A stretch of DNA of 64,000 nt from the NCBI GenBank assembly GCA_030602565.1, contig JAUVZL010000007.1, positions 761 to 64,760 on the forward strand, given 5' to 3'. Under the pieces are notes generated by a model. It was not told where the DNA came from and made no database searches. It saw only the letters and a list, made by a program, of their open reading frames with translations. Below are positions 11,337 to 52,861 of the stretch, piece by piece. The number at the start of each line of letters is the position of its first letter. Positions within the stretch are counted from its first letter, which is position 1. This stretch comes from Candidatus Stahliibacteriota bacterium. GTDB taxonomy: Bacteria > Hydrothermota > Tepidihabitantia > SM23-42. The position numbers were made by a program, and so were the translations under genes.

Positions 11337-11802
11337 TGATTGCAAGAAGAAGCCGGCAACGATATTCTTTAAGGAAGTATTACCAGGTAAGGTAACAGAG
11401 TTGCACCTTTGTGAGGCATGTGCACAAAAACGCGGTTTGATGATGGACAAGAAGCTGTCGCCCTTTGAGCTTCTCCAAAAGCTTTTACAAAAGAGAAGTG
11501 CTAAGGATGAACAGGTGATATGTCAGGTCTGCTATTTGTCGCTCGCAGAATTCAAACGCCAGGGCAGGTTTGGCTGCAGTCATTGCATAGAGCACTTCAG
11601 ACCGTACATTGAGAATTTGATAAAACAGATACACCAGTCCAGCAAACATGTTGGAAGACGACCAAAACAGGGTGCACGGAAGAGTTTCAAGGTCTTCAAG
11701 TTGCGTGAGGAATTGCGACGTGCTTTGGAAAAAGAAGCCTATGAGGACGCGGCTCAGATAAGGGATAGACTGAAGGATTTTGGAGTAGATGATGCTGAAT
11801 AA
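11326..11802 (+). CDS. mcsA: McsA-like protein (zinc-finger pairs plus UVR domain), activator of protein-arginine kinase
   Basis: CDDC..CEAC and CQVC..CSHC Cys pairs; C-terminal UvrB/C motif EAYEDAAQIRDRL. Confidence 0.7.
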   Translation: MLCDDCKKKPATIFFKEVLPGKVTELHLCEACAQKRGLMMDKKLSPFELLQKLLQKRSAKDEQVICQVCYLSLAEFKRQGRFGCSHCIEHFRPYIENLIKQIHQSSKHVGRRPKQGARKSFKVFKLREELRRALEKEAYEDAAQIRDRLKDFGVDDAE

Positions 11803-26032: not shown

Positions 26033-27067
26033 TTATGGATAATTTAGAAGGATAGCGTCAGCTTGATCTTCAGTGATAAGTTTTTCCTCAAGCAGTTTAG
26101 TAATGGATTGACGCATAGTAATCATCCCTTCCCTACCACCAGTCGCCATTACATTCCTCAAGAAATATGCTCCCCTCTTCCGAAATATATGCCGCGTCGC
26201 GCCAGTTGCAACCATAATCTCACAAGCCACGCGCTTTTCACCTGAGATTGTGGGAATAAGTTCTTGATGAATTATTGCTTGGACTGAATCTGCCAACAAA
26301 TACCGGATGTGCATTTCGAAATCAGTTGAACCATAGCTGACCAGGCGTTCGATAACTTTGTCGATCGATATTGTGTGCAAAGTCGAAAGGACCAGAATAC
26401 CAGTTGATGCAGCAATCAAGGCAATTTTAAACGTCTCAAAATCCCGCATTTCACCAATCGATATAACGTCCGGGTTCTGACGGAGCGCGGCTCGTAAACC
26501 TTGAGCAAAAGTTTTCGTGTCTCGACCAACTTCTCGCTGCCGAACTACACTCTTGATATTTCTATGTACATATTCAATCGGATCTTCTATAGTTACAATA
26601 TGTTTTTTATAATTTCGATTTATTTCATGGATCACAGCCGCCATTGTCGTGGTTTTCCCTTGACTTGTGGCACCGGTAATCAGAACAAGACCCTTAGTTA
26701 AGGTTGTGAACTTTTTTATAACTGATGGTAGATGTAATTCGTCAATGGTTTGAGGATTATCGATCAAAATCCTCAAGACCGATCCGATGTTGCCATCGTT
26801 AAAGCTAATATTAATTCGATACCGATTCTGATGGTATGCAAGCATAAAATCAATATCTAACTCATCCTCAAAAGTTTTTATCTGATCATTGTTCATTAAA
26901 TCGTAGGATAATTTTTTGGATACATCGGAAGTCAAAACGGTTTCATTCATTGGGATTAAATCATCACCAATCCTGAAAAGAATTGGCGCATGTGCACAAA
27001 TATGAATATCTGTCGCATTTTTCTGTTTTGCTATTTCGAATATTTTCTTAAGCTCATCGGATAACAT
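26033..27067 (-). CDS. pilT: type IV pilus twitching-motility ATPase PilT
   Basis: 344 aa; Walker A GATSQGKTTT, PilT-family Asp/His boxes, typical length. Confidence 0.85.
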   Translation of the reverse strand: MLSDELKKIFEIAKQKNATDIHICAHAPILFRIGDDLIPMNETVLTSDVSKKLSYDLMNNDQIKTFEDELDIDFMLAYHQNRYRINISFNDGNIGSVLRILIDNPQTIDELHLPSVIKKFTTLTKGLVLITGATSQGKTTTMAAVIHEINRNYKKHIVTIEDPIEYVHRNIKSVVRQREVGRDTKTFAQGLRAALRQNPDVISIGEMRDFETFKIALIAASTGILVLSTLHTISIDKVIERLVSYGSTDFEMHIRYLLADSVQAIIHQELIPTISGEKRVACEIMVATGATRHIFRKRGAYFLRNVMATGGREGMITMRQSITKLLEEKLITEDQADAILLNYP

Positions 27068-30694: not shown

Positions 30695-31064
30695 GGGCTC
30701 CTTATATCTATTGGTTGCCGTAGGTCTCGTCGTAGATCTCGAAGTATTGAGAGGAGTGTATCGAGAGGCAATTTTTTCATAGACGGAGCAACCGTTTCTC
30801 CAAGTCTTAACAAGATGACACCATTTGCTTCTTTTGTAGCATTTGTCAAACGTTTAGATTTGACGCCATTTGTTTACAAAACAGTATAATCAAAGATAAT
30901 AAAGTCATATTGTCATGCACCGTCCCTACTTCCCAACAGTTAATTTTAGACAACCAGGCGGACGAGGATCGGTCTCAAGATTCTTTATCGAACGTAAAAT
31001 TCGAATAGCATCATTAGGGGAGAGTCTATAGATGAATTTTTCGGCTGATGGTTTTATTAAAACT

Positions 31065-31277
31065 CTATAATTCAAGTTTAGTATTATGCAATTTTTCGTA
31101 GCGTTCTACTACATCAGAAACTGAAATTGGTTGCCCTTTCTCTTCTTTTGCTTTCTTTAAGTCCTCAAGATCCTCAAGGATCTCAATTAATTCAGTGAAA
31201 GCTGGATTAGATTTTGCCCATTCCCAAATCTCTTTTGAAATAATAACTGAATCCTTTTCTATGTTGACTTTCGACAT
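31065..31277 (-). CDS. small hypothetical protein (70 aa), only ORF in a repeat-rich 1.5-kb stretch
   Basis: acidic helical protein; no family assigned. Confidence 0.3.
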   Translation of the reverse strand: MSKVNIEKDSVIISKEIWEWAKSNPAFTELIEILEDLEDLKKAKEEKGQPISVSDVVERYEKLHNTKLEL

Positions 31278-31486
31278 AAGATCCTCCTTATATTCAGTAT
31301 ACGATTATATGTCTAATTCACATTCTGTCAACATAAATGGTGCACGTTTTTATCTGAGTTCTGCAAAGCGAGACGATGAGGGGTTTTTCTTTTTGTTAGT
31401 TTCATTTTTGGCTGCACAAAATTTACTGTCCTCGTTTTCTGTAAAAGAAACGGGACTTCATCAATTTGTGAATTGTGAAGCTGAAA

Positions 31487-31702: not shown

Positions 31703-31889
31703 GACAATAAGTATGCTATAGGGTCAAATATGCCTTCGTTGGAAACTACGGCATACATGCCTACCCTCTCCCTCAATGGGAGAGGGAATTTTTTATTTGA
31801 CTTTTTATCGATATCCTATATAATCAAAACGCAATGAGATTTCAGGGGATAGGACACGAGAGCAGTGCAAGTGATTTATTCTTAATGAT

Positions 31890-32336
31890 ATGCAAAACTA
31901 TTTGCCTATGAAGTGGTCTGTCCATCCAGCAAAAGATAACTTTATAAAGACTATTTTCAGTCTTATTTTCATCGTTGGTTTCCTCGTGTTTGTATCAATT
32001 TTCTACGGAGTTTTCTGGGCTATCCTGGGTTCCATAATTCTTTTTGTCAGTTTGTATTCCTACTTTTTTCCATCGCATTATGAAGTGAATCAGGAGCAGG
32101 TGATTATCAGGAATATATTCCTTACCCAACGCAGGCGCCTGGCCGAGTTCAAGAAAGTCTACCGAGGTAAAAATGGGATACTACTCAGTCCGTTCAAAAG
32201 AAAAACCTTTTTGAACCAGTTTCGCGGTGTTTTTCTTTTGTTGCCGAGAGAACGACAGGAAATTGAGGACTACGTAAGGGGGCTGGTTGAAAGTGATGAA
32301 ATGACCGAGGACGAGCATTCGAAGAAAGATGGTTAG
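31890..32336 (+). CDS. membrane protein, hypothetical
   Basis: two long hydrophobic helices. Confidence 0.4.
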   Translation: MQNYLPMKWSVHPAKDNFIKTIFSLIFIVGFLVFVSIFYGVFWAILGSIILFVSLYSYFFPSHYEVNQEQVIIRNIFLTQRRRLAEFKKVYRGKNGILLSPFKRKTFLNQFRGVFLLLPRERQEIEDYVRGLVESDEMTEDEHSKKDG

Positions 32337-33849
32337 TTCAGATAAGTACGCTGTTGTCGACAAGGTGATTGCTCAGAGATACTCATCGGATTTCTCTATA
32401 CCTTATGAACTCGCACAAATCCTCGCGGCGCGTTTCCCGTCATACAGTGAAGCAAAAAGATTCTTATTTCCAAACGTTGCAAACCTCCATGACCCATGGT
32501 CAATCCCAGACATGGGAAAAGCAGTTGATGAAATTGTTGCTTCAATAAAGGGCAACGAATGTATCCTTATTTACTGCCACGATGATCCTGATGGCTACAC
32601 TTCAGCATCAATTATGTACAAGACTCTTATCGACCTAACAAAGGGGCAGGATGAGAGGATTTTTTTGTACCCGGTTGTGCGTGAAAAAGACGGTTACATC
32701 CTTAACCCGGATGTTCTGAAAAGATATCAAGAACAAGGGGTTAGACTTCTCATAACAGTTGATTTTGGTATCAGTAGTATGGAGAATTTTCGCATCGCCT
32801 CTGAACTCGGCCTGAAACTCGTTGTTTGTGATCATCACGAAACCAAGCTGTCTGATTTTCCTGCTCCAGCAGTAGATCCGAAACGGCCCGATTCACAATA
32901 TCCATTCCGCGAACTGGCGGGCGTTGGCGTTAGCTTCAAGCTTGCCCAGTGTCTTTATCAAAGAGCACTCAATCTAAATGCGGCTGAATTCTATTCGTTG
33001 AAAAGAGATTTTTTTCCATTATTAATGCTTGGTACTATATCAGATCGAGTTGTTCTATTGGATGAGAACCGCATATTTAGCTCCTATGGTTTGAGCGTTT
33101 TTAACAGATTCGATGAACCGTGGATAAAGTACTTCAAAAGAGATGACGAGGTCGATACGTTTTTGATAAGACGTGAGATCATCCCGACAATTGGTTCAGC
33201 CGCTTATGTTGATCCCAACCTCGGTGTAGAGGTGTTCTTATGCCGTGATTTTGAGCGCGTGTCGGAAATTCTTGGTGTTTTAGAGGATATGAACAAGGAA
33301 CGGAAGCGAGGTGTTGATGAGTTATTGAACGCGGTTATTTCAGCAGCAAAGTTCTTCCCCCAACTCGTTGTTTCAATAGTTCCCTTTTCAAAACAGCATT
33401 ATCTTGGTTCGGTTGCCGCACGCCTGAGAGCCCGGTATAAAAAAACCGCGGTCCTTATTGGGCTCAAAGATGCCAAGTGTTTTGGTGAACTGCGTAGTAA
33501 TACAGTCGATCTATTCAAGATGTTAGACCGTTTCAGGTCATTGTTTATAGACTTTGGTGGTCATTGCAAGGCGGCTGGGTTCACGATGTCTGAGACGAAC
33601 CTTGATAGGTTTGTTGACGGCGTGGTTGGATACATTTCAAACGACGATTTACCAGTGAAATTAGAAGAAGAACCAGGTTTGAATGCTCAACCCATTTTTT
33701 TTCTTGAACGTACAAAAATAAATTTATTGCAGCCGCTGACACCGTTTGGCGAAGGCAATCCGCCGCCTCTATTGACAGACCGCACAAATATCTATACAAT
33801 CGATGACAGGCTCAATATAATCGAGAAGGAGATCGATGGCAAACCTTAA
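32329..33849 (+). CDS. DHH-family phosphoesterase (RecJ-like, DHH + DHHA1)
   Basis: motifs YCHDDPDG, DFGISS, CDHHE (DHH). Confidence 0.7.
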   Translation: MVSSDKYAVVDKVIAQRYSSDFSIPYELAQILAARFPSYSEAKRFLFPNVANLHDPWSIPDMGKAVDEIVASIKGNECILIYCHDDPDGYTSASIMYKTLIDLTKGQDERIFLYPVVREKDGYILNPDVLKRYQEQGVRLLITVDFGISSMENFRIASELGLKLVVCDHHETKLSDFPAPAVDPKRPDSQYPFRELAGVGVSFKLAQCLYQRALNLNAAEFYSLKRDFFPLLMLGTISDRVVLLDENRIFSSYGLSVFNRFDEPWIKYFKRDDEVDTFLIRREIIPTIGSAAYVDPNLGVEVFLCRDFERVSEILGVLEDMNKERKRGVDELLNAVISAAKFFPQLVVSIVPFSKQHYLGSVAARLRARYKKTAVLIGLKDAKCFGELRSNTVDLFKMLDRFRSLFIDFGGHCKAAGFTMSETNLDRFVDGVVGYISNDDLPVKLEEEPGLNAQPIFFLERTKINLLQPLTPFGEGNPPPLLTDRTNIYTIDDRLNIIEKEIDGKP

Positions 33850-34432
33850 TTTTGCAAAGAAGGAACTCAATCTAAAAATTGTCTACTACGGAACAGGTCT
33901 TTGTGGCAAAACAACTAATTTACGTACGATATTTTCCGCGATGGGTCCAGCAAGACGGGGACAGATGATGAGTCTTGCTACAGAACTCGATCAGACACTA
34001 TTTTTTGATTTCTTGCCGGTAGATCTGGGAAGTGTTAAGGGCTGGAAACTACGACACCACCTTTACACTGTACCAGGTCAAATATACTACAATGTTTCAC
34101 GCAAGTTAGTTCTTAAGAACGTTGACGGTTTGGTCTTCGTAGTAGATTCCCAGGAAGAACGCGTCGACGAAAATATCGAAAGTCTCAACAACTTACATGA
34201 TAATCTGGGTAGTTATGGTTTGAACCTCAAGGATATCCCAATGGTTATTCAATATAATAAGCGGGATCTTCCCAATATTATACCGATAAGTGATCTGCAA
34301 TTGCATATTAACCGGAACGGATATACTTATTTTGAAAGCGTGGCAATCCGGGGCATAGGTGTTTTTGATACGCTCAAGTCAATCTGTCAGCTCACCGTAG
34401 TCAAGCAGATGGAAAGTTTGCCCCAGGTCTAA
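33836..34432 (+). CDS. mglA: Ras-like small GTPase MglA
   Basis: KIVYYGTGLCGKTTNL P-loop and TLFFDFLP...YTVPGQ switch regions match MglA almost residue-for-residue pattern. Confidence 0.85.
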   Translation: MANLNFAKKELNLKIVYYGTGLCGKTTNLRTIFSAMGPARRGQMMSLATELDQTLFFDFLPVDLGSVKGWKLRHHLYTVPGQIYYNVSRKLVLKNVDGLVFVVDSQEERVDENIESLNNLHDNLGSYGLNLKDIPMVIQYNKRDLPNIIPISDLQLHINRNGYTYFESVAIRGIGVFDTLKSICQLTVVKQMESLPQV

Positions 34433-34470
34433 GCAGCCCCTATTCATAGCCCATTCAACCTAAAAAACTA

Positions 34471-34499
34471 TTGACTTTGGTTTAGTTGTTTGCTATAAT
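34471..34499 (+). promoter_or_regulatory. sigma70 promoter TTGACT-17-TATAAT, -10 ends 9 nt before mglB ATG (leaderless candidate)
   Basis: read directly. Confidence 0.55.
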
Positions 34500-34508
34500 T
34501 TACGTACA

Positions 34509-34916
34509 ATGGATAGACAACGAACAATCATCCTAACCACTGAAAAAGTCAAAAAACTCGACAGTCTACTAGCTGATTTCTGCGAAGAGGCAAATATAGT
34601 ATGGGCGATTTTTACTACAGCATCAGGTCAGATTCTGGTGCAGAAAGGGTTTGTCCATTCCTTTGATGTGTTAGCGATATCTGCGTTGGCATGTGGTGTT
34701 TTCAATTCGACTATGGAACTAGCCCGGATAGTTGGAGAAAGGCATTTCAGTCAATTCCTCCAAGAAGGTAAAAAATTCAGCGTCTACTATATCGGGGTCC
34801 ACGAAGATTATTTATTGGTTTCTCTTTTTGACGACCGTACGCTACCTGGCGTCGTTAAGGTGGCGAGCAAGGATTTTTCAGTAGGTGCAGAGGAGGTTCT
34901 GAGAAACGGAAAATGA
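34509..34916 (+). CDS. mglB: roadblock/LC7-domain protein MglB (MglA GAP)
   Basis: 135 aa roadblock fold pattern; adjacent to mglA. Confidence 0.75.
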   Translation: MDRQRTIILTTEKVKKLDSLLADFCEEANIVWAIFTTASGQILVQKGFVHSFDVLAISALACGVFNSTMELARIVGERHFSQFLQEGKKFSVYYIGVHEDYLLVSLFDDRTLPGVVKVASKDFSVGAEEVLRNGK

Positions 34917-36871
34917 AACGCCGACCAGACTTCGAAAATTTCTATGTGTATGAAGGCAACAAGGTTGCTTATCTTGCTGCCCGGAAGATTATTGAGTTCC
35001 CAGGTGAACTCTTCAATCCATTATATGTATACGCCAATACTGGTTTGGGTAAGACTCATATCTTGTTAGCAGTACAAGCTGAATTGAACAAGAAATCCAC
35101 GACGAAGTTTTTCTCCGCCAAAGAATTCGAAAAAGCCCTGGATGAAACAAAAGTCTTTGACTGTTCGATTATTGTCGATGACCTACATGCGATATCAGAT
35201 ACATATCATGATGCACTTCTCGGAGTTATTGATACAGCATTAGCGAACAACCGACAGGTGTGCTTCTCTGGTAACGCGGCACCCCGGGATTTGAAGAATT
35301 TTGATCACCACCTAGTTTCCCGACTTGAAGGTGGTCTTATCTGCGACATATTACCGCCAAAGGAGATGGCACTCATCGATATGATCAAGAAGAAATCTGG
35401 TGAAGCCGGGGTTCTTTTGCCAGACGAGGTTGCCTTGGAACTTGCTCAGATATCGATTGGTTCAATACGCACGATAGAGGGCATGATCAATCGCATAGTT
35501 GCCTATTCATCGCTCGGAAACCTATCACTCGACCCTAACAGCGTTCGCATGATTTTGAAGGAGTTTTATCCCAAGGGTATTTATAGTCCAGTTTCTTCAC
35601 TCCTTGAGGAATTGAAGAAGAACGCGAGTGAAGTATTGGCTGATGTGTCAGAAAAACTCGATGTGCGCGAAGAGTACAAGGAGAAGATATACATCTGGAA
35701 GATGAAGGGGTTTGATACTACCGTTCTTAAACCTTTGCTGGAAGGCGACGTTGAAAAACTAAAAAAAACATATGATGAATTCATCAAGAAGGTGGAAAGG
35801 CTTATTGAACTCCAGAAGGAATTCGGTTCACTTAACACGAGCAATTTTCCTGACGAAGCCATGAAGATTGAATCGATGTTATTTTCTCCAGAACACGTCG
35901 ATGACATCGAAGAACTCATCGCGAAAATAAAACAGGTGGTTCGGGTTGCTCAAGCAAAGAGAGCATTTGAGGACTACCTGATTGGTGCGTGCAACAAGGA
36001 TGCATATGACCTGTACAAAGAGCAGGTCGTCAAGAATTTAGGGGAGAAATTTAATCCCTTTATGGTATTTGGTAAAGAAGGGACCGGTCGAACGAGGTTC
36101 TTGAAAGAAGTAAGGATTGATCTGGAATCAGTAGATAAGGTGGTTTGCTTTGTTGATCTTGACGTTGAAGATGCGGTACACCAGCTTGAGAAGACGAACA
36201 GCTTTGATGTTCTGATAATGGACAACTTCCATAATATTTTTTCTTATAACAAGGAACTTCGCAAGAAAGTATTTGATATTGTGAGAAATTTCCTTGGTTC
36301 TGGGAAGGCAGTAATATTCAGTTCAGCTACATTCTCTTCGGATGTAGTGCTGGAAGAAGACGAAAAATCGATTTTCGAACTCGGTATCGAGGTCGAGTTG
36401 AAAGAACCGAGCTCTGACGTAGTTGAGTCTTATATCAAGACAAAGCTGGAGCCTGATAAGGCTGAATCTTTGATTGGCAAAGGGTTGCCAGAATTTGCTG
36501 CTTTCTCCAAGATAGACGATTTTATCAGTGATATGGCAAAGGAAGGTATTGCTTCAGTTGCCGCGGTGCCTGTCAGCGAGGTATTTGAACGAACCGAAGC
36601 ACCTGCCGAGCAGGAAGTAGTGCCATTGGGTCTGCTCGGAGAGACAATTGAAGCAGGCGAGGTCGCCAGTGAAGAAACATCGGTTGTATCATTAGGTCTG
36701 CCTGGGGAAGAAGCAATCAGCAAACAAGAGGTTGAGGAAGAAAGACCACCAGAAAAACTAAAGGAAAAAACCGAGCCTCCAGTTGTTAAAGGCGAGCCAC
36801 TCAAGGAAATCAAAGAAGAAAGGTTTATAGTAAAAGAAATACGTGGTGAGTTGATTGAAGATAATTATTAA
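34913..36871 (+). CDS. protein with two tandem DnaA/Hda-like AAA+ modules and acidic Pro/Glu-rich C-terminal tail (no DnaA DNA-binding domain IV)
   Basis: module 1: NPLYVYANTGLGKTHILLA, IIVDDLHAI, SRLEGGL, IRTIEGMINRIVAY (DnaA boxes); module 2: NPFMVFGKEGTGRTRFL, VLIMDNFHNIF (degenerate Walker A). Confidence 0.55.
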   Translation: MKRRPDFENFYVYEGNKVAYLAARKIIEFPGELFNPLYVYANTGLGKTHILLAVQAELNKKSTTKFFSAKEFEKALDETKVFDCSIIVDDLHAISDTYHDALLGVIDTALANNRQVCFSGNAAPRDLKNFDHHLVSRLEGGLICDILPPKEMALIDMIKKKSGEAGVLLPDEVALELAQISIGSIRTIEGMINRIVAYSSLGNLSLDPNSVRMILKEFYPKGIYSPVSSLLEELKKNASEVLADVSEKLDVREEYKEKIYIWKMKGFDTTVLKPLLEGDVEKLKKTYDEFIKKVERLIELQKEFGSLNTSNFPDEAMKIESMLFSPEHVDDIEELIAKIKQVVRVAQAKRAFEDYLIGACNKDAYDLYKEQVVKNLGEKFNPFMVFGKEGTGRTRFLKEVRIDLESVDKVVCFVDLDVEDAVHQLEKTNSFDVLIMDNFHNIFSYNKELRKKVFDIVRNFLGSGKAVIFSSATFSSDVVLEEDEKSIFELGIEVELKEPSSDVVESYIKTKLEPDKAESLIGKGLPEFAAFSKIDDFISDMAKEGIASVAAVPVSEVFERTEAPAEQEVVPLGLLGETIEAGEVASEETSVVSLGLPGEEAISKQEVEEERPPEKLKEKTEPPVVKGEPLKEIKEERFIVKEIRGELIEDNY

Positions 36872-36885
36872 TAAGAGGGCAGTAA

Positions 36886-38475
36886 ATGGCAATTAAGGGA
36901 TCTTTGGCTGAGGCATCTTTGCCAGACGTTATTCAGCTGCTAACATATTCTGGTAAATCTGGTTGTCTGTCGGTGACCGACGGTCGAAACTTCGGCAATG
37001 TTTTTATCAAAGACGGCAGAATCATTTATGCCACAATATTGAACAAGAAACAGCGACTCGGCGACATTCTTTTGATGAAGAGCATAATTGATAATGAAAC
37101 CTTGTCGCGTGCCCTGGAAATACAGAAAACAGCTAAGAAAAAGAGACTGGGCGAAATATTCATTGAAATCGGCGCTTTGACAAAAGATGTATTAGAGAAA
37201 GAACTCAAGGGGCAGATCGAGCAAACGATTTTCACCATGTTGACGTGGGAAACCGGGTATTTCAATTTTGAGGCTGATCTGCTACCATCACATGAGGAAT
37301 ATACAGTACAGCTGTCAGCTCAAGAACTTCTGCTTGAAGGAGCAAGACGAATAGACGAATGGCGGCAAATTGAAAACAAGATACCGTCTTTTGAAACCGT
37401 GCTAGTTCACAAAGGAGATAGCGCAGACATACCACTGACCACTGAGGAGAAGCAGATCATTGAGTTGATTGATGGCGCGCGGAGTATTGACGATGTCTTG
37501 AAGTTGTCGAAGTTTGATTTCTTTGAGACATGCCGAACAATCTATGGATTACTTTCTGCTGGTTTATTGGAGAAACCTGAGAAACTCTTGAGGAGCAAGA
37601 AGACAACAGGGGACGTATCAGAATATAAGAACCTCGGGTTTGCTTTTTACAAAACGGAGATGTTTGACGAGGCTGAACGGGAATATAAAAAGGTTCTCGA
37701 TATTGATGACAAGAACGCGGAAGCACTATTCTATCTCGGACTTATTGAATTAACTCATGGTAGCTTTACCGACGCGCGAGACAATTTATTGAAAGCACTA
37801 GCTCAAGACAATCGGGCATCAGTGCTCACTAATTTGGGTTATGTCTACCTGAAGTTGGAATTGTATGATGAAGCAGTAGATTATCTGAATCAAGGGGTCG
37901 GGCTCGCACCAGATAACATGAGAGTAAAAACCAACCTGGCGATTGCCTTCTATGAAAAGGACGATTTTGATAAAGCCGCTGAGATTTTTAGGGAAATTAT
38001 TGATAAATCACCGGAAATTATAAGCCCATATATTTACTTACCGTTAGTTCATTTGAAGCAGGGGGATAGTGGGGCATCAGCCAAATTGCTGAATGATGCG
38101 ATCGACCGATTCCCCAGATTCTCGATTTTTAAGAACAACCTTGCGGTGCTCTACGAAAGCACTGATCGACCCGAAGATGCCGAGAAGCTCTATAGGCAAG
38201 CGCTTGAAACAGATCTTGGAGACAACGTGGTGTGCCGAAATCTTGCTGATTTTTATTACGAAGCTCAGATTTTAGGTGCGGCGAAAGAATTGTATGAGAA
38301 GATCCTTGATGAAAACAAAGATTGGCAGATTTTATTCAAGCTGGGTAATATTTCATTACGCCAGGGCGATGCGGAAAATGCGCTGAGTTTTTGGGAACGA
38401 GCTCAGCAACTGAATCCGTCAGAAGAGATTATTGCACGTAACATCGAAGTGTTGAAGAAGTCGGGTGGAAAATAG
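36886..38475 (+). CDS. DUF4388/PATAN-like N-terminal domain protein with C-terminal TPR repeats
   Basis: N-terminus SLPDVIQLLTYSGKSGCLSV...GRIIYA matches DUF4388 consensus; TPR region from about residue 250. Confidence 0.6.
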   Translation: MAIKGSLAEASLPDVIQLLTYSGKSGCLSVTDGRNFGNVFIKDGRIIYATILNKKQRLGDILLMKSIIDNETLSRALEIQKTAKKKRLGEIFIEIGALTKDVLEKELKGQIEQTIFTMLTWETGYFNFEADLLPSHEEYTVQLSAQELLLEGARRIDEWRQIENKIPSFETVLVHKGDSADIPLTTEEKQIIELIDGARSIDDVLKLSKFDFFETCRTIYGLLSAGLLEKPEKLLRSKKTTGDVSEYKNLGFAFYKTEMFDEAEREYKKVLDIDDKNAEALFYLGLIELTHGSFTDARDNLLKALAQDNRASVLTNLGYVYLKLELYDEAVDYLNQGVGLAPDNMRVKTNLAIAFYEKDDFDKAAEIFREIIDKSPEIISPYIYLPLVHLKQGDSGASAKLLNDAIDRFPRFSIFKNNLAVLYESTDRPEDAEKLYRQALETDLGDNVVCRNLADFYYEAQILGAAKELYEKILDENKDWQILFKLGNISLRQGDAENALSFWERAQQLNPSEEIIARNIEVLKKSGGK

Positions 38476-39259
38476 CTTTCAGAACCTAATCAGGTACATT
38501 GAACAGAAAACCCCGTTCAGATGTCAGAGTTATAAAGAAAAGCCACTCAAGAGACGTCTCAGAGTCAGAATGAGGGTTCTGAATATCAAAGATTTTGCAA
38601 AATATGAAACATACTTGAGAGACGATGACACTGAGCTGAAGAAATTAGTGGAAACGCTGACTATAAATCTGTCGTATTTCTTCCGAAACCCTGAAACTTT
38701 TTTCTTTTTGAAAGACTACATATTTCCAGTATTTAAAAGAAAAAAAGACGACCTTGTTTTCTGGAGCGCTGGATGTGCACAAGGTGAGGAACCGTATTCT
38801 CTTGCAATTATGGCGGCGGAGAGTAGGATGCTCGATAACGTGAAGATATTTGGTACTGATATAGACAGCAGGGTGTTGGATGTCGCACACCAGGGGTTGT
38901 ATTCAGACATTGCCTTTCAGTATACTCCAGACGATCTGCAGAAGAAATATTTCAAACGTGTTTCTGGTGGTCATTTGATCGATACCAGGTTGAGAGAGCG
39001 GGTTAGTTTTTTAAATGTTGATCTCTTTGCAACCCCTCCTTTCGGACCATGTGATTTGATAATGTGCCGAAATGTGATGATCTATCTTGACCGAAATGCC
39101 CAATCAACTATCCTTAAGAATTTCTACGATCATTTGAACCCTGATGGCTACTTGGTGATCGGTAAAGTGGAGTTGCTGATAGGCATCCCTGAGGTAGAGT
39201 TGTTCAACACAGTAAGCCGAGTTGAACACGTCTACCAGAGAAAAGAAATGCCTTTATAA
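38465..39259 (+). CDS. cheR: chemotaxis protein methyltransferase CheR
   Basis: FFRNPETF, WSAGCAQGEEPYSLAI, GTDIDSRVL motifs. Confidence 0.8.
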   Translation: MENSFQNLIRYIEQKTPFRCQSYKEKPLKRRLRVRMRVLNIKDFAKYETYLRDDDTELKKLVETLTINLSYFFRNPETFFFLKDYIFPVFKRKKDDLVFWSAGCAQGEEPYSLAIMAAESRMLDNVKIFGTDIDSRVLDVAHQGLYSDIAFQYTPDDLQKKYFKRVSGGHLIDTRLRERVSFLNVDLFATPPFGPCDLIMCRNVMIYLDRNAQSTILKNFYDHLNPDGYLVIGKVELLIGIPEVELFNTVSRVEHVYQRKEMPL

Positions 39260-39301
39260 GACAACTGGGAAAAGGATAGTGCAGGTTAGCTATTCGCAGA
39301 G

Positions 39302-39760
39302 ATGAACGAACAAAAGGTTGGTATCGGTGAAGTTCGGGTTGAACAAGGTAAGGTTAAACTCCTTGCTTTTGGCGTTGGTTCTTGTATTGTGATAATACTT
39401 TATGACGAAACGAAGAAAATTGGCGGACTTGCCCATTGCCTTTTACCGTTTGGCAGCGATATGAGTCTAAAATATCCGCGTGATGCGATAGCCGAAATGC
39501 TCAGACAGATGTCTCAAAAAGGGGCATCTAAAGGTCAGGTCATCGCCAAGATAGTGGGTGGTGCTACAATGTTCGAAGGTTTTGAACGACATGCAATTGG
39601 TAAGCGTAACGTAGTCAAAACCAGGGAGGAACTGAACAGCGTCGACATCCCAATAATTGCTGAAGACGTATTTGGTAACTGGGGTAGATCGATTTCATTC
39701 AATATTGATAATGGTGAAGTCAAGGTGAGGTCGTACCGACACGGTGAGAAAATTCTATGA
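39302..39760 (+). CDS. cheD: chemoreceptor glutamine deamidase CheD
   Basis: LLAFGVGSCIVIILYD...GGLAHCLLP pattern. Confidence 0.8.
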   Translation: MNEQKVGIGEVRVEQGKVKLLAFGVGSCIVIILYDETKKIGGLAHCLLPFGSDMSLKYPRDAIAEMLRQMSQKGASKGQVIAKIVGGATMFEGFERHAIGKRNVVKTREELNSVDIPIIAEDVFGNWGRSISFNIDNGEVKVRSYRHGEKIL

Positions 39761-39792
39761 AGATAATAGTCCGCAAAGCGAGGCGTGGTCCG

Positions 39793-40811
39793 TGAAGAAG
39801 AAAGTCCTCATTGTCGAAGATTCAATTTTAATGCAAAGGGTTATTGGCGACATTATTAGTTCGTCTGGCGATTTTGAGGTTTGCGGTTATGCCCGTGATA
39901 TAGTTGAAGGATGGGCGAAATTCAACAAGCGGCAGCCTGACCTCGTTACCCTCGATTATGAGCTGCCTGGTGAGAATGGTTTGGTATTACTGAGTAAGAT
40001 CATGAATTCAAAGCCAACACCTGTTCTAATGCTATCAGCACACACTAAAGACGGCGCTGAGTTGACGATCCGTTCATTAGAAATGGGGGCAGTGGATTTC
40101 TTCACAAAACCATCGGGTACTATTTCTATTGATTTATATAACTATAAGATGGACTTGATAGATAAACTGCAGATCGCGAGTCAAGCAAGGCTTCCCGAGG
40201 TCCTGGAGGGTAAGGTTCGGAAGAAAATATCGATATTCCGCGAGCTCTATGTTGGTATCGCTGCATCGACCGGCGGTGTGCGCGCGCTCAACTATATCAT
40301 CCCTTCGTTTCCGGCAAAGTGTGGTTTACGAATTATTGTGGTGCAGCATATGCCAAGGTATTTTACTGCCAGCCTTGCCTTGCACATGAATGAGCGAGCC
40401 AGTATGGTCGTCAGAGAAGCAGAAGATGGTGATCCAATCTCGGATGGAGAAGTTCTTGTTGCACCGGGTGGCCATCACATAAAGGTCGATGATGCCGGCA
40501 CCAAAGTTGTGCTGAGTGACGAGCCAGCAAGACACGGCGTTAAGCCATCGGCAGATATTTTATTTGAATCTATGGCAACCGTTTACAAAGATGCCGCAGT
40601 CGGTATTGTTTTGACTGGGATGGGACGTGACGGCGCCGCTGGCATAAAGGTAATCAAGAGACACGGTGGTGTTGTTATTGCTCAAGACCCGGATGACGCG
40701 ATTATCGGAGGGATGCCGCAATCAGCGATAAACACCGGTGTGGTCGATTATGTTCTGCCATTGAATTTAATCCCAGACAAGATTTTTGAGTATGTTGCGA
40801 AAAAGATATGA
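39793..40811 (+). CDS. cheB: protein-glutamate methylesterase/response regulator CheB
   Basis: receiver KVLIVEDS..D..LPG; methylesterase GASTGG, HMP motifs; GTG start chosen downstream of cheD stop. Confidence 0.8.
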
Positions 40812-41698
40812 AACAAGGGAATAAAGATCTACAGGAGCGGCTTACAGCACTGGAACATAGAGTCAAACACTTCAAACCTGAAGATGACAAAGCGATAAGG
40901 GACGAAATAAAAAAGATATACGTCGACATTGCGAATGGCCTTAAGATACTCACCGAAGCCCAGGAAAAAATAAGAAGCATTGCCCATGAGTTTAAGAAAA
41001 GTAAAACAACTTATACTGAAGTTGGTAAATTCTATTCTTTTGTGAAATCACAGACATCAGCTGAATTGGACCTGGCTACCTTGCTTGACCGCGCTTGGAA
41101 CCTCATAGTCATGGAGGACTTGGATGAAGCAATAAAGGTGCTTAAGAGAGTTCTTGATATTGAGCCAAAAAACATAAAAGGATTAGGTTTTATGTGCTTA
41201 GCTTTGATGGACAAGGATCAATATGATGATGCCATGATGCACCTACAAAAGGTTTTGGTTAATGAACCTGACAACCCTTTTGCGCTCAACAACCTTGGCT
41301 ATATATGCTATAAAAAAGGCATATGGGGTGAAGCAATAGAACATCTGGGTAAAGCCGCAAAGCAAACAAAAGATCGAATGGCGTCTCTGTATGCCAACTA
41401 CTACTTGGGTCTGGTCTATTACGAGCGGTCAATGCTCGACGATGCAGTAAGATTCTTCAAGAAGGCGCTCAAACTTGGGCCAAATTTACAGGAAGCTTAT
41501 TACTATCTGGGTTTGGCTGAGGTGAAGCGCTATGAGTTCAAGAATGCGATTGGCTATTTCGAGAAGTGTGTTCTTATCGACCGCCGGTCAAAATACAGCA
41601 AGCTCAGCAAGGCTGAATGCGATAAAATCAGACCCCTGATTGATACCCGCAAGAAACTGAAGGATTTAAGTAGCCGGCAATCAAATGACGATGAGTAG
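40808..41698 (+). CDS. TPR-repeat protein
   Basis: several 34-aa TPR units (ALNNLGYICYKKG etc.). Confidence 0.6.
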   Translation: MKQGNKDLQERLTALEHRVKHFKPEDDKAIRDEIKKIYVDIANGLKILTEAQEKIRSIAHEFKKSKTTYTEVGKFYSFVKSQTSAELDLATLLDRAWNLIVMEDLDEAIKVLKRVLDIEPKNIKGLGFMCLALMDKDQYDDAMMHLQKVLVNEPDNPFALNNLGYICYKKGIWGEAIEHLGKAAKQTKDRMASLYANYYLGLVYYERSMLDDAVRFFKKALKLGPNLQEAYYYLGLAEVKRYEFKNAIGYFEKCVLIDRRSKYSKLSKAECDKIRPLIDTRKKLKDLSSRQSNDDE

Positions 41699-42488
41699 AA
41701 TGATACAAAAGCGTGAACTCAAACGCTGTTTAGGTGATATCATCGATCTAGCGATAAAAGTAGGTGCCTACATATTCAAGAGTGCTGAGAAAAAGAAGCA
41801 GCTTCGTTACAAGGGAGAAATTGATATTGTGACGCAATTCGACAAAAAATCACAGGATATGATTGTTGCGGAACTGGCAAAGAAATATCCACGATATGGT
41901 ATCCTTAGTGAAGAGGGGATAAGGTGTAATGCCGATGCTTTGCTAAAGTGGATAATCGATCCCCTGGATGGTACAACGAATTTTGCTCACGGATTACCGA
42001 TCTGGACAATTTCCATTGCCCTGGAAGTAGAAGGAGATATTTTACTCGGTGTTGTCTATGACCCGACGCGTCAGGAAATGTTTTTTGCAATCAAAGGTAA
42101 TGGTGCATTCAGGGATCGGAAGAGAATAAAAGTGTCAGGTGTTCGGAAGTTAGACCGTGCCCTCCTTGTTACTGGTTTTCCTTACGACATAAGAACGTCA
42201 AGTGAAAACAACTTGAGTCACTTTGCCGATTTTGCGGTACGTGCCCAGGCCGTGAGGCGTTTGGGCTCTGCTGCATTAGATCTGTGCTACACTGCGTGCG
42301 GTAGATTCGACGGTTATTGGGAACTTAAACTTTCACCATGGGATCAAGCAGCAGGTTCGTTGATTCTCAAGGAGGCAGGTGGTAGAATTACTGATTTCAA
42401 GGGTAACAAATTTGATATCTATGGCGACGAAGTCCTTGGAACAAACCGTCTAATTCACCATCAAATGATGAAAGTGTTGAGATTGTAG
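41685..42488 (+). CDS. inositol monophosphatase family protein (SuhB-like)
   Basis: LSEEG, WIIDPLDGTTNF, WDQAAG motifs. Confidence 0.8.
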   Translation: MTMSRMIQKRELKRCLGDIIDLAIKVGAYIFKSAEKKKQLRYKGEIDIVTQFDKKSQDMIVAELAKKYPRYGILSEEGIRCNADALLKWIIDPLDGTTNFAHGLPIWTISIALEVEGDILLGVVYDPTRQEMFFAIKGNGAFRDRKRIKVSGVRKLDRALLVTGFPYDIRTSSENNLSHFADFAVRAQAVRRLGSAALDLCYTACGRFDGYWELKLSPWDQAAGSLILKEAGGRITDFKGNKFDIYGDEVLGTNRLIHHQMMKVLRL

Positions 42489-52060: not shown

Positions 52061-52861
52061 ATGAATAATAGTACAGCTGAAAAATATCTTGGCCCAAAGG
52101 AAACAGAAGTAATTGCAAGACTTTCTTACGAGAAAGCAACCTTAATTACAAAAGAGCAGTTTGACAAGTGGTTTGAGTTTAACCCCGCACTGCGGAAACA
52201 GATAATCTTTAGGCTCAAGAAAAAAGGCATACTGACTGCTATTAAAAGAGGAGTTTATTTTTATTCGCCGCTTGAATCAGGTCCGGCAGGAAGTAGTATA
52301 AACGAGTTCCTTGTGCCGCCTGTTTTCTTTCCAGGAGGCAATTACTACGTAGGGTATTCAATTATGTATAACTATTATGGCTTCACAGACCAGATTTTCC
52401 AGACAATGTATATTCTCAACACTTCTTTACAACGTGCGAAGACAATAGGCAATGTGCGATATAAAATGGTTAAAATACCTGCAAAAAGAATGTTTGGGCT
52501 TGAAAATATTAAGATAGAGGATACTGAAGTCATAATAAGCGATAGGGAAAGGACTCTTGTGGATTTGATTTATTTTTCAGGACCTGTCGGTGGACTAAAG
52601 AAAGCATTTGAGATATTAGAAGAGCAGGCAAAAAATCGTAAGGTTAATGTTAGTAAATTGGTTAAATATGCTGCTAAATTTCCTAATATTTCAACTCGAA
52701 AAAGGATAGGTTTTGTTTTAGAAAAGGCAGGCATCGATTATAAGAGACTCGAGCCTTTGCTTAAAACCGTAAGAAAGACATCCTTTGTTACGCTTTATCC
52801 TTCAAAATCAAGAAGAGGAAGAATAAATAAGAAGTGGATGGTAATTGAAAATGCTCCATAG
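52061..52861 (+). CDS. AbiEi-like (type IV TA antitoxin-like) winged-helix protein, orphan
   Basis: N-terminal wHTH with KRGVYFY motif reminiscent of AbiEi; no AbiEii partner present. Confidence 0.35.
   Translation: MNNSTAEKYLGPKETEVIARLSYEKATLITKEQFDKWFEFNPALRKQIIFRLKKKGILTAIKRGVYFYSPLESGPAGSSINEFLVPPVFFPGGNYYVGYSIMYNYYGFTDQIFQTMYILNTSLQRAKTIGNVRYKMVKIPAKRMFGLENIKIEDTEVIISDRERTLVDLIYFSGPVGGLKKAFEILEEQAKNRKVNVSKLVKYAAKFPNISTRKRIGFVLEKAGIDYKRLEPLLKTVRKTSFVTLYPSKSRRGRINKKWMVIENAP

What the first reader, a model, noticed from the sequence alone, without database searches (positions are those of the whole stretch)
34913..36871. Two DnaA/Hda-like AAA+ modules in one 652-aa protein lacking the DnaA DNA-binding domain
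Module 1 keeps an intact Walker A (GLGKTH), the DnaA sensor/box VII-like SRLEGGL and the IRTIEGMINRIVAY helix. Module 2 is degenerate (GTGRTR, VLIMDNFHNIF). The C-terminus is an acidic E/P/K-rich tail (…EEERPPEKLKEKTEPPVVKGEPLKE…). A replication-initiator-derived ATPase embedded in a motility/polarity operon is unusual. It could act as a nucleotide-dependent scaffold.
Basis: seen in the sequence. Interest (0 to 1): 0.65.

Follow-up and report, generated by a model that had tools for sequence, protein, structure and literature searches.

The report
DnaA-derived tandem ATPase in pilus-polarity operon
A conserved protein built from two copies of the ATPase core of the replication initiator DnaA, with no DNA-binding domain, sits in a signalling operon for type IV pilus polarity in WOR-3 bacteria and related candidate phyla; its role there is uncharacterised.

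Summary
ORF 34913-36871 (+) encodes a 652-aa protein. Both halves match Pfam Bac_DnaA on their own (E 1e-23 and 3e-13). DnaA domains I and IV are absent.

Module 1 keeps a full DnaA catalytic set: Walker A K47, Walker B D89/D90, arginine finger R137 and sensor II R186. Its initiator-specific motif is cut to one helix. Module 2 is degenerate: GTGRT, Asp-Asn Walker B, no arginine finger, no sensor II.

- The 130-aa "linker" is the best conserved part. It is one copy of an unannotated helical repeat that occurs up to 25 times in other giant proteins, one of them from a Thermoplasmata archaeon.
- The acidic tail carries conserved LGLPGEE motifs and a conserved ELIEDNY end.
- The constant partners are PATAN and TPR proteins plus Che enzymes, more than MglAB.

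In 68 related loci a PATAN-TPR gene follows directly in 57 of 64 testable cases. MglB (41) or MglA (18) precedes in 59 of 66. PilT, CheW and MCP genes join the cluster in some lineages.

Most likely it is a non-replicative, ATP-gated scaffold or switch in a type IV pilus polarity pathway. That mechanism is inferred, not shown. I found no published description.

The parts
34913..36871 (+). Whole gene: 652-aa tandem DnaA-type AAA+ protein ('DnaA2x')
   Evidence: ORF. The start ATG overlaps the mglB stop as ATGA. About 100 full-length homologues at 45-90% identity.
34913..35557 (+). Module 1 (aa 1-215): complete DnaA domain III, AAA+ base plus lid
   Evidence: Pfam Bac_DnaA E 1.1e-23. PDB profile hit to B. 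subtilis DnaA 8bv3/8btg, E 4e-45, over aa 3-220. Foldseek 8bv3_A TM 0.81. pLDDT 90-96.
35033..35059 (+). Walker A, ANTGLGKTH (K47)
   Evidence: G46, K47 and T48 are conserved in >=90% of the family. Aligned to DnaA GLGKTH.
35165..35185 (+). Walker B, SIIVDDL (D89, D90)
   Evidence: D89 and D90 are invariant in 78 sequences.
35102..35164 (+). Shortened initiator-specific motif region between strands beta2 and beta3
   Evidence: About 13 residues shorter than in true DnaA. AlphaFold2 shows one helix, 69-78, where DnaA has two.
35309..35338 (+). Box VII, HLVSRLEGGL, with arginine finger R137
   Evidence: S136, R137, E139, G140 and L142 are conserved in >=90%; G141 is invariant. Aligned to DnaA RSRF(E/G)WGL.
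35453..35506 (+). Box VIII / sensor II helix, SIGSIRTIEGMINRIVAY (R186)
   Evidence: R186, G190, N193 and R194 are conserved in >=90%. Aligned to DnaA NIRELEGALNR.
35558..35659 (+). Conserved segment KEFYPKGIYSPVSSLLEELKKNASEVL (aa 216-249), a predicted amphipathic helix
   Evidence: More than 90% conserved at most positions; E233 is invariant. pLDDT below 50 in the full model, which suggests a partner-binding element (inference).
35660..35947 (+). Middle helical domain (aa 250-345) with YIW(E/K)MKGF, LIELQKEFG and ESMLFSPD motifs
   Evidence: W262, K265 and G266 are invariant. pLDDT 85-93. The profile finds the same unit 3-25 times in tandem in other proteins. No Pfam model matches it. No PDB fold match.
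35948..36550 (+). Module 2 (aa 346-546): degenerate DnaA-type AAA+
   Evidence: Pfam Bac_DnaA E 2.8e-13 for this half alone. pLDDT about 90. The catalytic-residue table reads R/D-N/no arginine finger/no sensor II.
36065..36097 (+). Module 2 P-loop, VFGKEGTGRTR (Lys replaced by Arg)
   Evidence: G387 and G390 are conserved in >=90%; G392 is invariant. Arg occurs only in the Stahlbacteria subclade; the rest have Lys.
36206..36232 (+). Module 2 Walker B, DVLIMDNFH (D437-N438)
   Evidence: D437 is invariant; N438 and F439 are conserved in >=90%.
36551..36868 (+). Acidic, Pro-rich disordered tail (aa 547-652)
   Evidence: pLDDT 31-45. 26 Glu, net charge -15, pI 4.35. Length varies across the family.
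36614..36712 (+). Two short linear motifs, VVPLGLLGE and VVSLGLPGEE
   Evidence: L594, G595, G598 and E599 are conserved in >=90%. Copy number is 0-3 by regex, and a related VGVEELPAPAEEE / AGVLEEEVAPPEQ unit is reiterated many times in the tail of P0157.
36815..36868 (+). C-terminal motif EERFIVKEIRGELIEDNY-COOH
   Evidence: E646 is invariant and E649 is conserved in >=90%. ..ELIE(D/E)N(Y/F) ends most members, and acidic-aromatic variants end distant ones.
33836..34432 (+). mglA (198 aa)
   Evidence: E 5e-68 to M. xanthus and T. thermophilus MglA structures.
34509..34916 (+). mglB (135 aa, Roadblock/LC7), translationally coupled to the target gene
   Evidence: E 4e-10 to MglB structures. NCBIfam MglB E 7e-10. 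ATGA overlap.
36886..38475 (+). PATAN (DUF4388)-TPR protein, 529 aa, 14 nt downstream
   Evidence: Pfam DUF4388 E 2e-34 plus TPRs. Directly downstream in 57 of 64 testable family loci.
38465..41698 (+). cheR, cheD, cheB and a 296-aa TPR gene, overlapping or closely spaced
   Evidence: Pfam. NCBIfam CheB 340 bits against a 293 cut-off. CheR is the second gene downstream in 45 of 58 loci.

Best explanation
The protein is a non-replicative paralogue of DnaA, made of two DnaA domain III ATPase modules. It has been recruited as a core subunit of a chemosensory / small-GTPase pathway that controls type IV pilus polarity.

Proposed working:
1. Module 1 is a complete DnaA-type ATP switch. When ATP is bound, its box VII arginine finger engages the nucleotide site of a neighbouring module. 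That neighbour is either module 2 of the same chain or module 1 of another chain. The protein therefore changes between an assembled and an unassembled state, and hydrolysis resets it.
2. Module 2 still has a selected P-loop and Walker B Asp but no catalytic carboxylate, arginine finger or sensor II. It serves as a nucleotide-binding, non-hydrolysing structural partner.
3. The conserved middle helical domain, the amphipathic helix before it, and the acidic tail with LGLPGEE motifs and the ELIEDNY end are docking elements. Likely partners are MglB (translationally coupled) and the TPR part of the PATAN-TPR protein.
4. The PATAN domain is the output to the pilus motor.

The ATPase would thus gate, in time or in space, the link between MglA/MglB polarity, Che-type adaptation enzymes and the pilus motor.

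Shown here: the domain anatomy, motif conservation, loss of the DNA-binding domains, and conserved synteny.

Inferred: oligomerisation, the binding partners, the direction of signalling, and the pilus output.
For: Anatomy and DnaA origin.

Catalytic residues. Module 1 has K/DD/arginine finger/sensor II in the large majority of 165 N-modules. Module 2 has K or R, D-N, and no arginine finger in WOR-3. The P-loop glycines and D437 are still invariant.

In a Gemmatimonadota member both modules are 48-50% identical to true DnaA domain III.

No domain I or IV. The whole protein has pI 4.85.

Synteny over 68 non-redundant loci from WOR-3/Stahlbacteria, TA06, Gemmatimonadota and Cloacimonadota MAGs:
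- PATAN-TPR directly downstream in 57 of 64.
- MglB (41) or MglA (18) directly upstream, of 66.
- CheR next in 45 of 58.

Synteny holds at 25-28% identity.

Other genes in the cluster:
- A PilT-like ATPase lies just upstream of mglA in the L065 (WOR-3) and L049 (TA06) loci and further upstream in L054.
- CheW and two MCP genes close the cluster in L086, which also has three Roadblock genes.
- A CheW-domain gene and a CheC/CheX gene lie close upstream in the Cloacimonetes locus.

Gene overlaps (ATGA with mglB, 14 nt to the PATAN-TPR gene) indicate co-expression.

The middle domain and the C-terminal motif are retained even where one ATPase module is lost or degenerate.

From the literature:
- PATAN domains bind PilB1 and PilC and act as the output domain (bioRxiv 10.1101/2021.06.11.447907).
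- mglA/mglB genes are known to neighbour PATAN genes (PMC4316618).
- The cultured WOR-3 strain has pili (PMC12285271).

A PilT/PilU gene is in the window.
Against: No interaction, ATPase activity or oligomeric state was tested.

The AlphaFold2 model has pTM 0.41, so the relative placement of the two modules is undefined.

Synteny shows co-function, not mechanism.

Some members lack module 2 (L041, L043, L061, L062) or have a degenerate module 1 (L064, L065). The tandem pair itself is therefore not essential.

In the query the module 2 P-loop Lys is Arg, so nucleotide binding there is uncertain.

No CheA, CheW or MCP gene lies in the part of the window that was annotated.

A canonical dnaA in the same genome could not be verified with these tools.
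Confidence: 0.55

Rival explanations
1. It is an Hda-like regulator of DnaA. The free arginine finger of module 1 stimulates ATP hydrolysis on the cell's true DnaA, and so couples the replication cycle to motility or polarity.
For: Module 1 is close to DnaA and Hda and keeps the arginine finger. A RecJ-family gene is co-conserved upstream in the Stahlbacteria-type loci.
Against: The Hda model scores 103 bits against a 194.8 cut-off. No clamp-binding QL[SD]LF-type motif is present. No replication genes other than the RecJ-like one are in the conserved neighbourhood, and that gene is absent from most loci. The tandem architecture, middle domain and acidic tail have no counterpart in Hda.
Confidence: 0.08
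2. It is an AAA+ remodeller or assembly chaperone. It uses ATP to assemble or take apart complexes of MglB, PATAN-TPR, the pilus motor or the chemosensory array, rather than acting as a scaffold or switch.
For: One active and one degenerate module in tandem recalls NSF, p97 and ClpB-type proteins, which appear as weak structural matches. The genes for possible client proteins are co-operonic.
Against: Foldseek TM to those proteins is only 0.2-0.25, against 0.8 for DnaA domain III. Initiator-clade AAA+ proteins are not known to form closed pore-loop rings or to thread substrates (established knowledge). Single-module members exist.
Confidence: 0.15
3. It is a nucleic-acid-bound platform. Like DnaA domain III on single-stranded DNA, or FrzCD on the nucleoid, it oligomerises on DNA and tethers the signalling complex to the chromosome.
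For: Gemmatimonadota and Cloacimonadota members keep a full-length initiator-specific motif region in both modules, together with both arginine fingers.
Against: In the window's protein that motif is cut to one helix in module 1 and is shorter still in module 2. Domain IV is absent. The protein is strongly acidic, pI 4.85 with a net -15 tail.
Confidence: 0.07
4. It is a purely structural pseudo-enzyme. The ATPase folds are only a frame for the middle domain and the tail, and nucleotide turnover plays no part.
For: The middle domain and the C-terminal motif are the most constant features. Either ATPase module can decay or be lost in some lineages.
Against: At least one module with Walker A Lys, Walker B DD, arginine finger and sensor II is kept in nearly all members. 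D89 and D90 are invariant in 78 sequences. That is hard to explain without selection for catalysis.
Confidence: 0.1

Closest known systems
DnaA domain III (e.g. B. subtilis 8bv3/8btg, T. maritima 2z4r, A. aeolicus 2hcb)
   Same: Both modules are DnaA-type AAA+. Module 1 has Walker A, Walker B, box VII arginine finger and box VIII sensor II in register, and the lid subdomain is present. TM 0.81 to 8bv3.
   Different: No domain I, II or IV. Two modules in one chain. The initiator-specific motif is cut to one helix. The protein is acidic. It is encoded in a motility and signalling operon.
Hda / HdaA (DnaA regulatory inactivator)
   Same: A DnaA-derived AAA+ without a DNA-binding domain that retains the arginine finger.
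   Different: Hda is one module of about 230-250 aa with an N-terminal clamp-binding motif. Here there are two modules, a middle domain and a tail, no clamp motif, and a score below the Hda cut-off.
'DnaA-related protein' 2kjq (149-aa PDB entry)
   Same: It is the best solved-structure sequence match for module 2, E 1e-4, over profile positions 379-491.
   Different: It is a stand-alone protein of unknown function, and the similarity is weak.
MglA/MglB accessory proteins of Myxococcus (RomR, RomX, RomY, MglC) and the Frz chemosensory system
   Same: Analogous position: a protein encoded with and presumably working with MglA/MglB and Che-type enzymes. RomR also combines a folded domain with a Pro-rich and Glu-rich tail (my own knowledge of the literature). 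The Frz-MglAB link is described in PMC4316618.
   Different: No sequence or fold relationship. None of those proteins is an AAA+ ATPase.
PatA-type PATAN regulators (Synechocystis PixE/PixG etc.)
   Same: The invariant neighbour carries a PATAN domain, which in cyanobacteria binds PilB1 and PilC and is the output to the pilus.
   Different: Here PATAN is fused to TPRs, not to a receiver domain, so it cannot be switched by phosphorylation. The DnaA-derived ATPase is a candidate for that switching role (inference).
Tandem AAA+ proteins with one active and one degenerate module (NSF, p97, ClpB; also ORC and clamp-loader assemblies)
   Same: The division of labour between a catalytic module and a nucleotide-binding structural module.
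   Different: They belong to different AAA+ clades. No pore loops here, TM only 0.2-0.25, and a helical domain is inserted between the two modules.

Membership tests
DnaA (chromosomal replication initiator, TIGR00362 / PF00308 + PF08299 + PF11638) | AAA+ domain III with Walker A/B, box VII arginine finger and box VIII sensor II | tested here: met
   Module 1 only.
DnaA (chromosomal replication initiator, TIGR00362 / PF00308 + PF08299 + PF11638) | C-terminal helix-turn-helix domain IV that binds DnaA boxes (Bac_DnaA_C) | tested here: not met
   No PF08299 hit at E<=1. The C-terminus is a disordered acidic tail.
DnaA (chromosomal replication initiator, TIGR00362 / PF00308 + PF08299 + PF11638) | N-terminal domain I (DnaA_N) | tested here: not met
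   The AAA+ module starts at residue 2, and there is no PF11638 hit.
DnaA (chromosomal replication initiator, TIGR00362 / PF00308 + PF08299 + PF11638) | Score at or above the curated equivalog cut-off | tested here: not met
   177.6 bits against 343.9.
DnaA (chromosomal replication initiator, TIGR00362 / PF00308 + PF08299 + PF11638) | Two-helix initiator-specific motif between beta2 and beta3 | tested here: not met
   About 13 residues shorter, with one helix (aa 69-78) in the model. It is retained in Gemmatimonadota and Cloacimonadota relatives.
Hda (TIGR03420) | Single AAA+ module scoring above the cut-off | tested here: not met
   103.1 bits against 194.8, and a tandem architecture.
Hda (TIGR03420) | N-terminal beta-clamp-binding motif (QL[SD]LF-like) | tested here: not met
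   A regex scan found none.
AAA+ superfamily, initiator / helicase-loader clade | P-loop, Walker B, sensor I, arginine finger and sensor II on an alpha-beta-alpha base plus helical lid | tested here: met
   Module 1 is complete. Module 2 has the fold only.
AAA+ superfamily, initiator / helicase-loader clade | ATP-dependent head-to-tail oligomerisation | not testable with these tools
   The arginine finger and the basic residue equivalent to E. coli DnaA R281 are conserved, but no complex prediction or biochemistry was possible.
Chemoreceptor-like substrate or tether of CheR/CheB | Methylation consensus [ASTG][ASTG]xx[EQ][EQ]xx[ASTG][ASTG] | tested here: not met
   No match in the protein. Real MCP genes are in the cluster in L086.
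Chemoreceptor-like substrate or tether of CheR/CheB | C-terminal xWxxF pentapeptide, together with a CheR that has the long beta-subdomain loop | tested here: not met
   The end is IEDNY. The CheR is closest to B. subtilis CheR, and its loop is 4 residues shorter than in Salmonella CheR 1bc5.

The most novel reading that the evidence does not exclude
A switch taken from the replication initiator has become the timing or landmark element of a cell-polarity pathway. On this reading, ATP-bound DnaA2x forms DnaA-like oligomers at one pole. They recruit MglB through the middle domain and the PATAN-TPR pilus-motor adaptor through the acidic tail. Hydrolysis triggered by the arginine finger then dissolves the assembly. 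This would take the place of the CheY-type phosphorylation that controls PATAN regulators elsewhere, and of RomR/RomX/MglC in Myxococcus. The middle domain would define a new helical repeat family that these bacteria share with giant repeat proteins, at least one of them archaeal.
Probability: 0.2. Interest if true: 0.85.

Novelty: new variant of a known kind. Interest (0 to 1): 0.62.

Why it matters
DnaA-type ATPases are known almost only from replication initiation and its control. Here a conserved family spans at least four candidate or little-studied phyla, and the DnaA ATP switch is built into a pilus-polarity and chemosensory operon. That would be a clear case of a replication initiator module reused for cell polarity.

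It also gives a concrete candidate for how PATAN-TPR adaptors, which have no receiver domain, are switched, and for what takes the place of RomR/RomX-type partners of MglA/MglB outside Myxococcota.

The middle domain is a widespread helical repeat with no Pfam model and no solved structure, so it is a domain family still to be defined.

The hypothesis is testable: a handful of point mutants (K47A, D89/D90, R137A, a tail truncation) and a few binary interaction assays would decide it.

Tried and rejected
1. The tail as an NWETF-like tether for CheR/CheB. Rejected: the motif does not fit xWxxF, and the CheR is of the short-loop type, closest to B. subtilis CheR.

2. The protein as the methylation substrate of CheR/CheD/CheB. 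Rejected: no methylation consensus, and genuine MCP and CheW genes occur in the cluster in L086.

3. An Hda-like clamp-binding motif. None found.

5. A word-indexed protein search with the middle-domain alignment was swamped by Glu/Lys-rich words and returned only 5 hits. The exhaustive profile search replaced it.

6. A PATAN-like N-terminus in repeat protein P0213. Pairwise E was only 0.05 and there was no Pfam hit, so it is not claimed.

7. Genomic context of the multi-repeat proteins (P0126, P0127, P0129, P0154, P0181, P0213). It was heterogeneous, with no recurrent partner, although an MshEN protein and STAS/SpoIIE genes flank P0154.

8. Taxonomy of the nearest true DnaAs and of distant family representatives. 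The sources give no organism names.

9. Literature. No paper links MglA/MglB, PATAN/DUF4388 or WOR-3 with a DnaA-like ATPase.

Full report
**1. Observation**

The ORF at 34913..36871 (+) encodes 652 aa. Each half, tested alone, matches Pfam Bac_DnaA. The N half (aa 2-145) scores 84.6 bits, E 1.1e-23. The C half (aa ~348-495) scores 50.8 bits, E 2.8e-13. The gathering score is 23 bits.

No DnaA_N or Bac_DnaA_C match appears at E<=1. NCBIfam ranks DnaA above Hda for both halves, and both scores are far below the equivalog cut-offs: 177.6 against 343.9, and 103.1 against 194.8.

A family profile hits B. subtilis DnaA (8bv3, 8btg) at E 4e-45 over residues 3-220.

**2. Anatomy**

Module 1 (aa 1-215) is a complete DnaA domain III with its lid. 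It has:
- Walker A, ANTGLGKTH (K47)
- Walker B, IIVDD (D89 and D90 invariant in 78 sequences)
- box VII, SRLEGGL, with arginine finger R137
- box VIII, SIRTIEG, with sensor II R186

One difference from DnaA stands out. The stretch between strands beta2 and beta3 forms the two-helix initiator-specific motif in DnaA. Here it is about 13 residues shorter and is modelled as a single helix.

Module 2 (aa 346-546) has the same fold at pLDDT about 90. Its motifs are degenerate: GTGRT, Walker B Asp-Asn, Ile at the arginine-finger position, and no sensor II arginine.

The P-loop glycines G387 and G390 are conserved in at least 90% of sequences. G392 and D437 are invariant. The nucleotide pocket is therefore still under selection.

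The Lys-to-Arg change is peculiar to the Stahlbacteria subclade. Most relatives have GTGKT.

Aa 547-652 form a disordered tail with 26 Glu, 9 Pro and net charge -15.

**3.

The segment between the modules is the best conserved part of the protein. It has two parts:
- a nearly invariant amphipathic stretch, KEFYPKGIYSPVSSLLEELKKNA, with low pLDDT
- a four-helix domain (aa 250-345) with the motifs YIW(E/K)MKGF, LIELQKEFG and ESMLFSPD

The tail carries one to three copies of a (V)PLGLPGEE motif. It ends in KEERFIxxEIxGELIE(D/E)N(Y/F), with E646 invariant. Distant members end in related acidic-aromatic peptides: RLIKDY, IIWEEL, VWEEY, YVEFEV, LIEWEF.

**4. The middle domain is a repeat unit found elsewhere**

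I searched a profile of aa 216-346 against 1.84 billion representative proteins. It found 308 proteins at E<=1e-3.

About 40% of a sample of 80 are DnaA-flanked proteins like this one: 33 have a Bac_DnaA match. The others carry the unit 3 to 25 times in tandem. Examples are P0126 (1281 aa, 11 copies) and P0127 (3090 aa, 25 copies).

These repeat proteins sometimes have DUF835, KaiC-like domains or zinc ribbons. One is from a Thermoplasmata archaeon.

The shared motifs are W-x3-G-(Y/F), L-x-E-L, and L-x-D-P-x-(K/R)-(I/V)-x-E-I-E. They are in register, so this is homology and not composition.

No Pfam or NCBIfam model covers the unit. A separate AlphaFold2 model (pLDDT 80.6) has no PDB match below E 4.

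**5. The family and its variants**

The word-indexed search found about 100 full-length homologues at 45-90% identity, almost all from candidate division WOR-3 or TA06.

The genome scan places the window in Candidatus Stahlbacteria (WOR-3), with 90% identity to L015 and L035. It extends the family to MAGs labelled Gemmatimonadetes and Cloacimonetes.

Architecture varies with lineage:
- Gemmatimonadota and Cloacimonadota members have two near-canonical modules. Each is 48-50% identical to true DnaA domain III in the Gemmatimonadota member P0183, 38-47% in the Cloacimonetes member. They retain full initiator-specific motifs and arginine fingers.
- Most WOR-3 members have a degenerate module 2.
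- One WOR-3 group (L064, L065) has a degenerate module 1 and an intact module 2.
- L041/L043 and L061/L062 lack module 2 altogether.
- L077 and L078 have an LptB-like ABC ATPase in its place.

The constant elements are at least one competent P-loop module, the middle domain, and the C-terminal peptide.

**6. Context**

In the window the genes overlap or nearly abut from 31890 to 42488:

| Position | Gene |
|---|---|
| 31890..32336 | 148-aa membrane protein |
| 32329..33849 | RecJ-family DHH protein |
| 33836..34432 | mglA |
| 34509..34916 | mglB |
| 34913..36871 | DnaA2x |
| 36886..38475 | PATAN-TPR |
| 38465..39259 | cheR |
| 39302..39760 | cheD |
| 39744..40811 | cheB |
| 40808..41698 | TPR |
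| 41685..42488 | inositol monophosphatase |

A terminator-like hairpin and a promoter-like site lie just upstream, at 31764-31824. There is another promoter-like site in the mglA-mglB gap. The DnaA2x start overlaps the mglB stop as ATGA.

Across 68 non-redundant family loci:
- A PATAN-TPR gene is the next gene in 57 of 64 testable cases. In Gemmatimonadota and Cloacimonadota, separate TPR and PATAN genes lie directly upstream instead.
- MglB (41) or MglA (18) is the preceding gene, of 66 testable.
- CheR follows in 45 of 58.

The order MglB - DnaA2x - PATAN-TPR - CheR survives at 28% identity.

A PilT-like ATPase sits immediately before mglA in L065 (WOR-3) and L049 (TA06), and further upstream in L054.

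In L086 the cluster is: PATAN-TPR, three Roadblock genes, a 197-aa gene, DnaA-mid, PATAN-TPR, CheR, CheD, CheB, TPR, CheW and two MCPs.

The Cloacimonetes locus has a CheW-domain gene and a CheC/CheX gene close upstream.

The window itself holds a PilT/PilU gene at 26033-27067, scoring 341.9 bits against a 319.1 cut-off. No replication gene other than the RecJ-like one is part of the conserved set.

**7. Mechanism: what is shown and what is inferred**

Shown:
- The protein cannot be a DnaA-box-binding initiator.
- It keeps one complete DnaA-type ATP site with a trans-acting arginine finger.
- It is co-inherited with MglA/MglB, PATAN, TPR and Che proteins, and in places with PilT.

From the literature:
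- PATAN is the output domain that binds PilB1 and PilC in Synechocystis.
- mglA/mglB are known neighbours of PATAN genes.
- The cultured WOR-3 strain has pili.

Inferred. DnaA2x is an ATP-gated scaffold or switch. ATP lets the module 1 arginine finger engage a neighbouring nucleotide site, either module 2 in cis or another protomer in trans. This creates an assembled state that hydrolysis resets.

The middle domain, the helix before it and the multivalent acidic tail would dock MglB and the TPR domains. The C-terminal acidic-aromatic peptide next to ever-present TPR proteins resembles the way EEVD tails bind TPR clamps. That resemblance is an analogy from my own knowledge and was not tested.

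The PATAN-TPR protein has no receiver domain, so the ATPase is a plausible substitute for phosphorylation control.

I put 0.8 on 'non-replicative component of this pilus-polarity signalling module' and about 0.35 on the specific assembly and docking scheme. Overall confidence is 0.55.

**8. Rivals**

- Hda-like control of DnaA. No clamp motif, below the cut-off, wrong neighbours.
- AAA+ remodeller. Weak fold similarity to ring unfoldases, TM 0.2-0.25, and the wrong clade.
- DNA-bound platform. The protein is acidic, the initiator-specific motif is truncated and there is no domain IV. The canonical modules of Gemmatimonadota members keep this open for them.
- Pure pseudo-enzyme. Argued against by invariant catalytic residues.
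- Tail as CheR tether or methylation substrate. Tested and not supported.

**9. Comparison and novelty**

The protein works from DnaA parts but fails the membership tests for both DnaA and Hda. It belongs to the initiator clade of AAA+ by sequence and fold.

Databases label its relatives only as 'DnaA/Hda family protein' or 'DnaA ATPase domain-containing protein'. Five literature searches found no description of such a protein with MglAB, PATAN or WOR-3.

I class it as a new variant of a known kind: a DnaA-derived ATPase with a new architecture and a new, non-replicative context.

**10. Limits**

- Everything functional is inference from sequence, models and synteny.
- The inter-module geometry is undefined (pTM 0.41).
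- All relatives are from MAGs or metagenomes.
- I could not confirm a separate dnaA, or the location of cheA, cheW and mcp, in this genome.

Noticed in passing
window 37054-37212 (aa 57-109 of the PATAN-TPR protein, gene 36886-38475): The alpha-helical insertion of the PATAN domain holds two tandem MshEN-type c-di-GMP-binding motifs: RLGDILLMKSIIDNETLSRALEIQ and RLGEIFIEIGALTKDVLEKELKGQ. It passes NCBIfam NF053729 at 40.9 bits against a 38 cut-off. This points to a c-di-GMP input into the same module.
   Followed up: partly
window 35558-35950, and proteins P0126-P0268: The middle domain of the target is one copy of an unannotated helical repeat of about 105 aa. It occurs 3-25 times in tandem in giant proteins, one of them from a Thermoplasmata archaeon, and some carry DUF835, KaiC-like domains or zinc ribbons. 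No Pfam model and no PDB fold match.
   Followed up: partly
window 26033-27067 (-): A PilT/PilU family type IVa pilus ATPase, scoring 341.9 bits against a 319.1 cut-off. It lies 7 kb upstream of the operon. In other lineages a PilT-like gene sits directly before mglA.
   Followed up: partly
L077 5956-7785 and L078 1948-3771: In two MAGs, module 1 plus the middle domain is fused in one ORF to an LptB-like ABC ATPase (LLGPNGAGKST...LSGGERRR) where module 2 would be. I did not check whether this is a real fusion or a frameshift or assembly effect.
   Followed up: no
L086 1-13663: A fuller version of the cluster in a metagenome contig: PATAN-TPR, TPR-Roadblock, two more Roadblock genes, a 197-aa gene, single-module DnaA-mid protein, PATAN-TPR, CheR, CheD, CheB, TPR, CheW and two MCPs.
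   Followed up: partly
window 31890-33849: A 148-aa predicted membrane protein and a 506-aa RecJ-family DHH/DHHA1 protein are co-conserved directly upstream of mglA in Stahlbacteria-type loci. The RecJ-family protein scores 270 bits against TIGR00644, below the 396.9 cut-off, and its OB domain match is only marginal. Their role in the operon is unexplained.
   Followed up: partly
window 30926-31331 (-): Two small overlapping ORFs of 70 aa and 49 aa lie behind a perfect TTGACA-16-TATAAT promoter-like site at 31331-31304. The layout resembles a small, possibly truncated toxin-antitoxin pair. The 70-aa ORF has no NCBIfam hit.
   Followed up: no
window 54871-59427 and 13731-15218: A 1518-aa subtilase with a Por_Secre_tail (type IX secretion sorting domain) and FlgD_ig domain, and a second FlgD_ig protein. 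Both are likely type IX secretion cargo.
   Followed up: no
window 11789-12841: An ATP:guanido phosphotransferase (McsB-like protein arginine kinase family) next to ABC/FtsX genes.
   Followed up: no
window 52061-52861: A protein with an AbiEi antitoxin C-terminal domain, which may be a remnant of an abortive-infection toxin-antitoxin system.
   Followed up: no
protein P0157 (865 aa, family member): Its tail is expanded by many tandem copies of a short acidic Pro-rich unit (VGVEELPAPAEEE / AGVLEEEVAPPEQ) related to the LGLPGEE motif. The number of tail motifs therefore varies in evolution.
   Followed up: no
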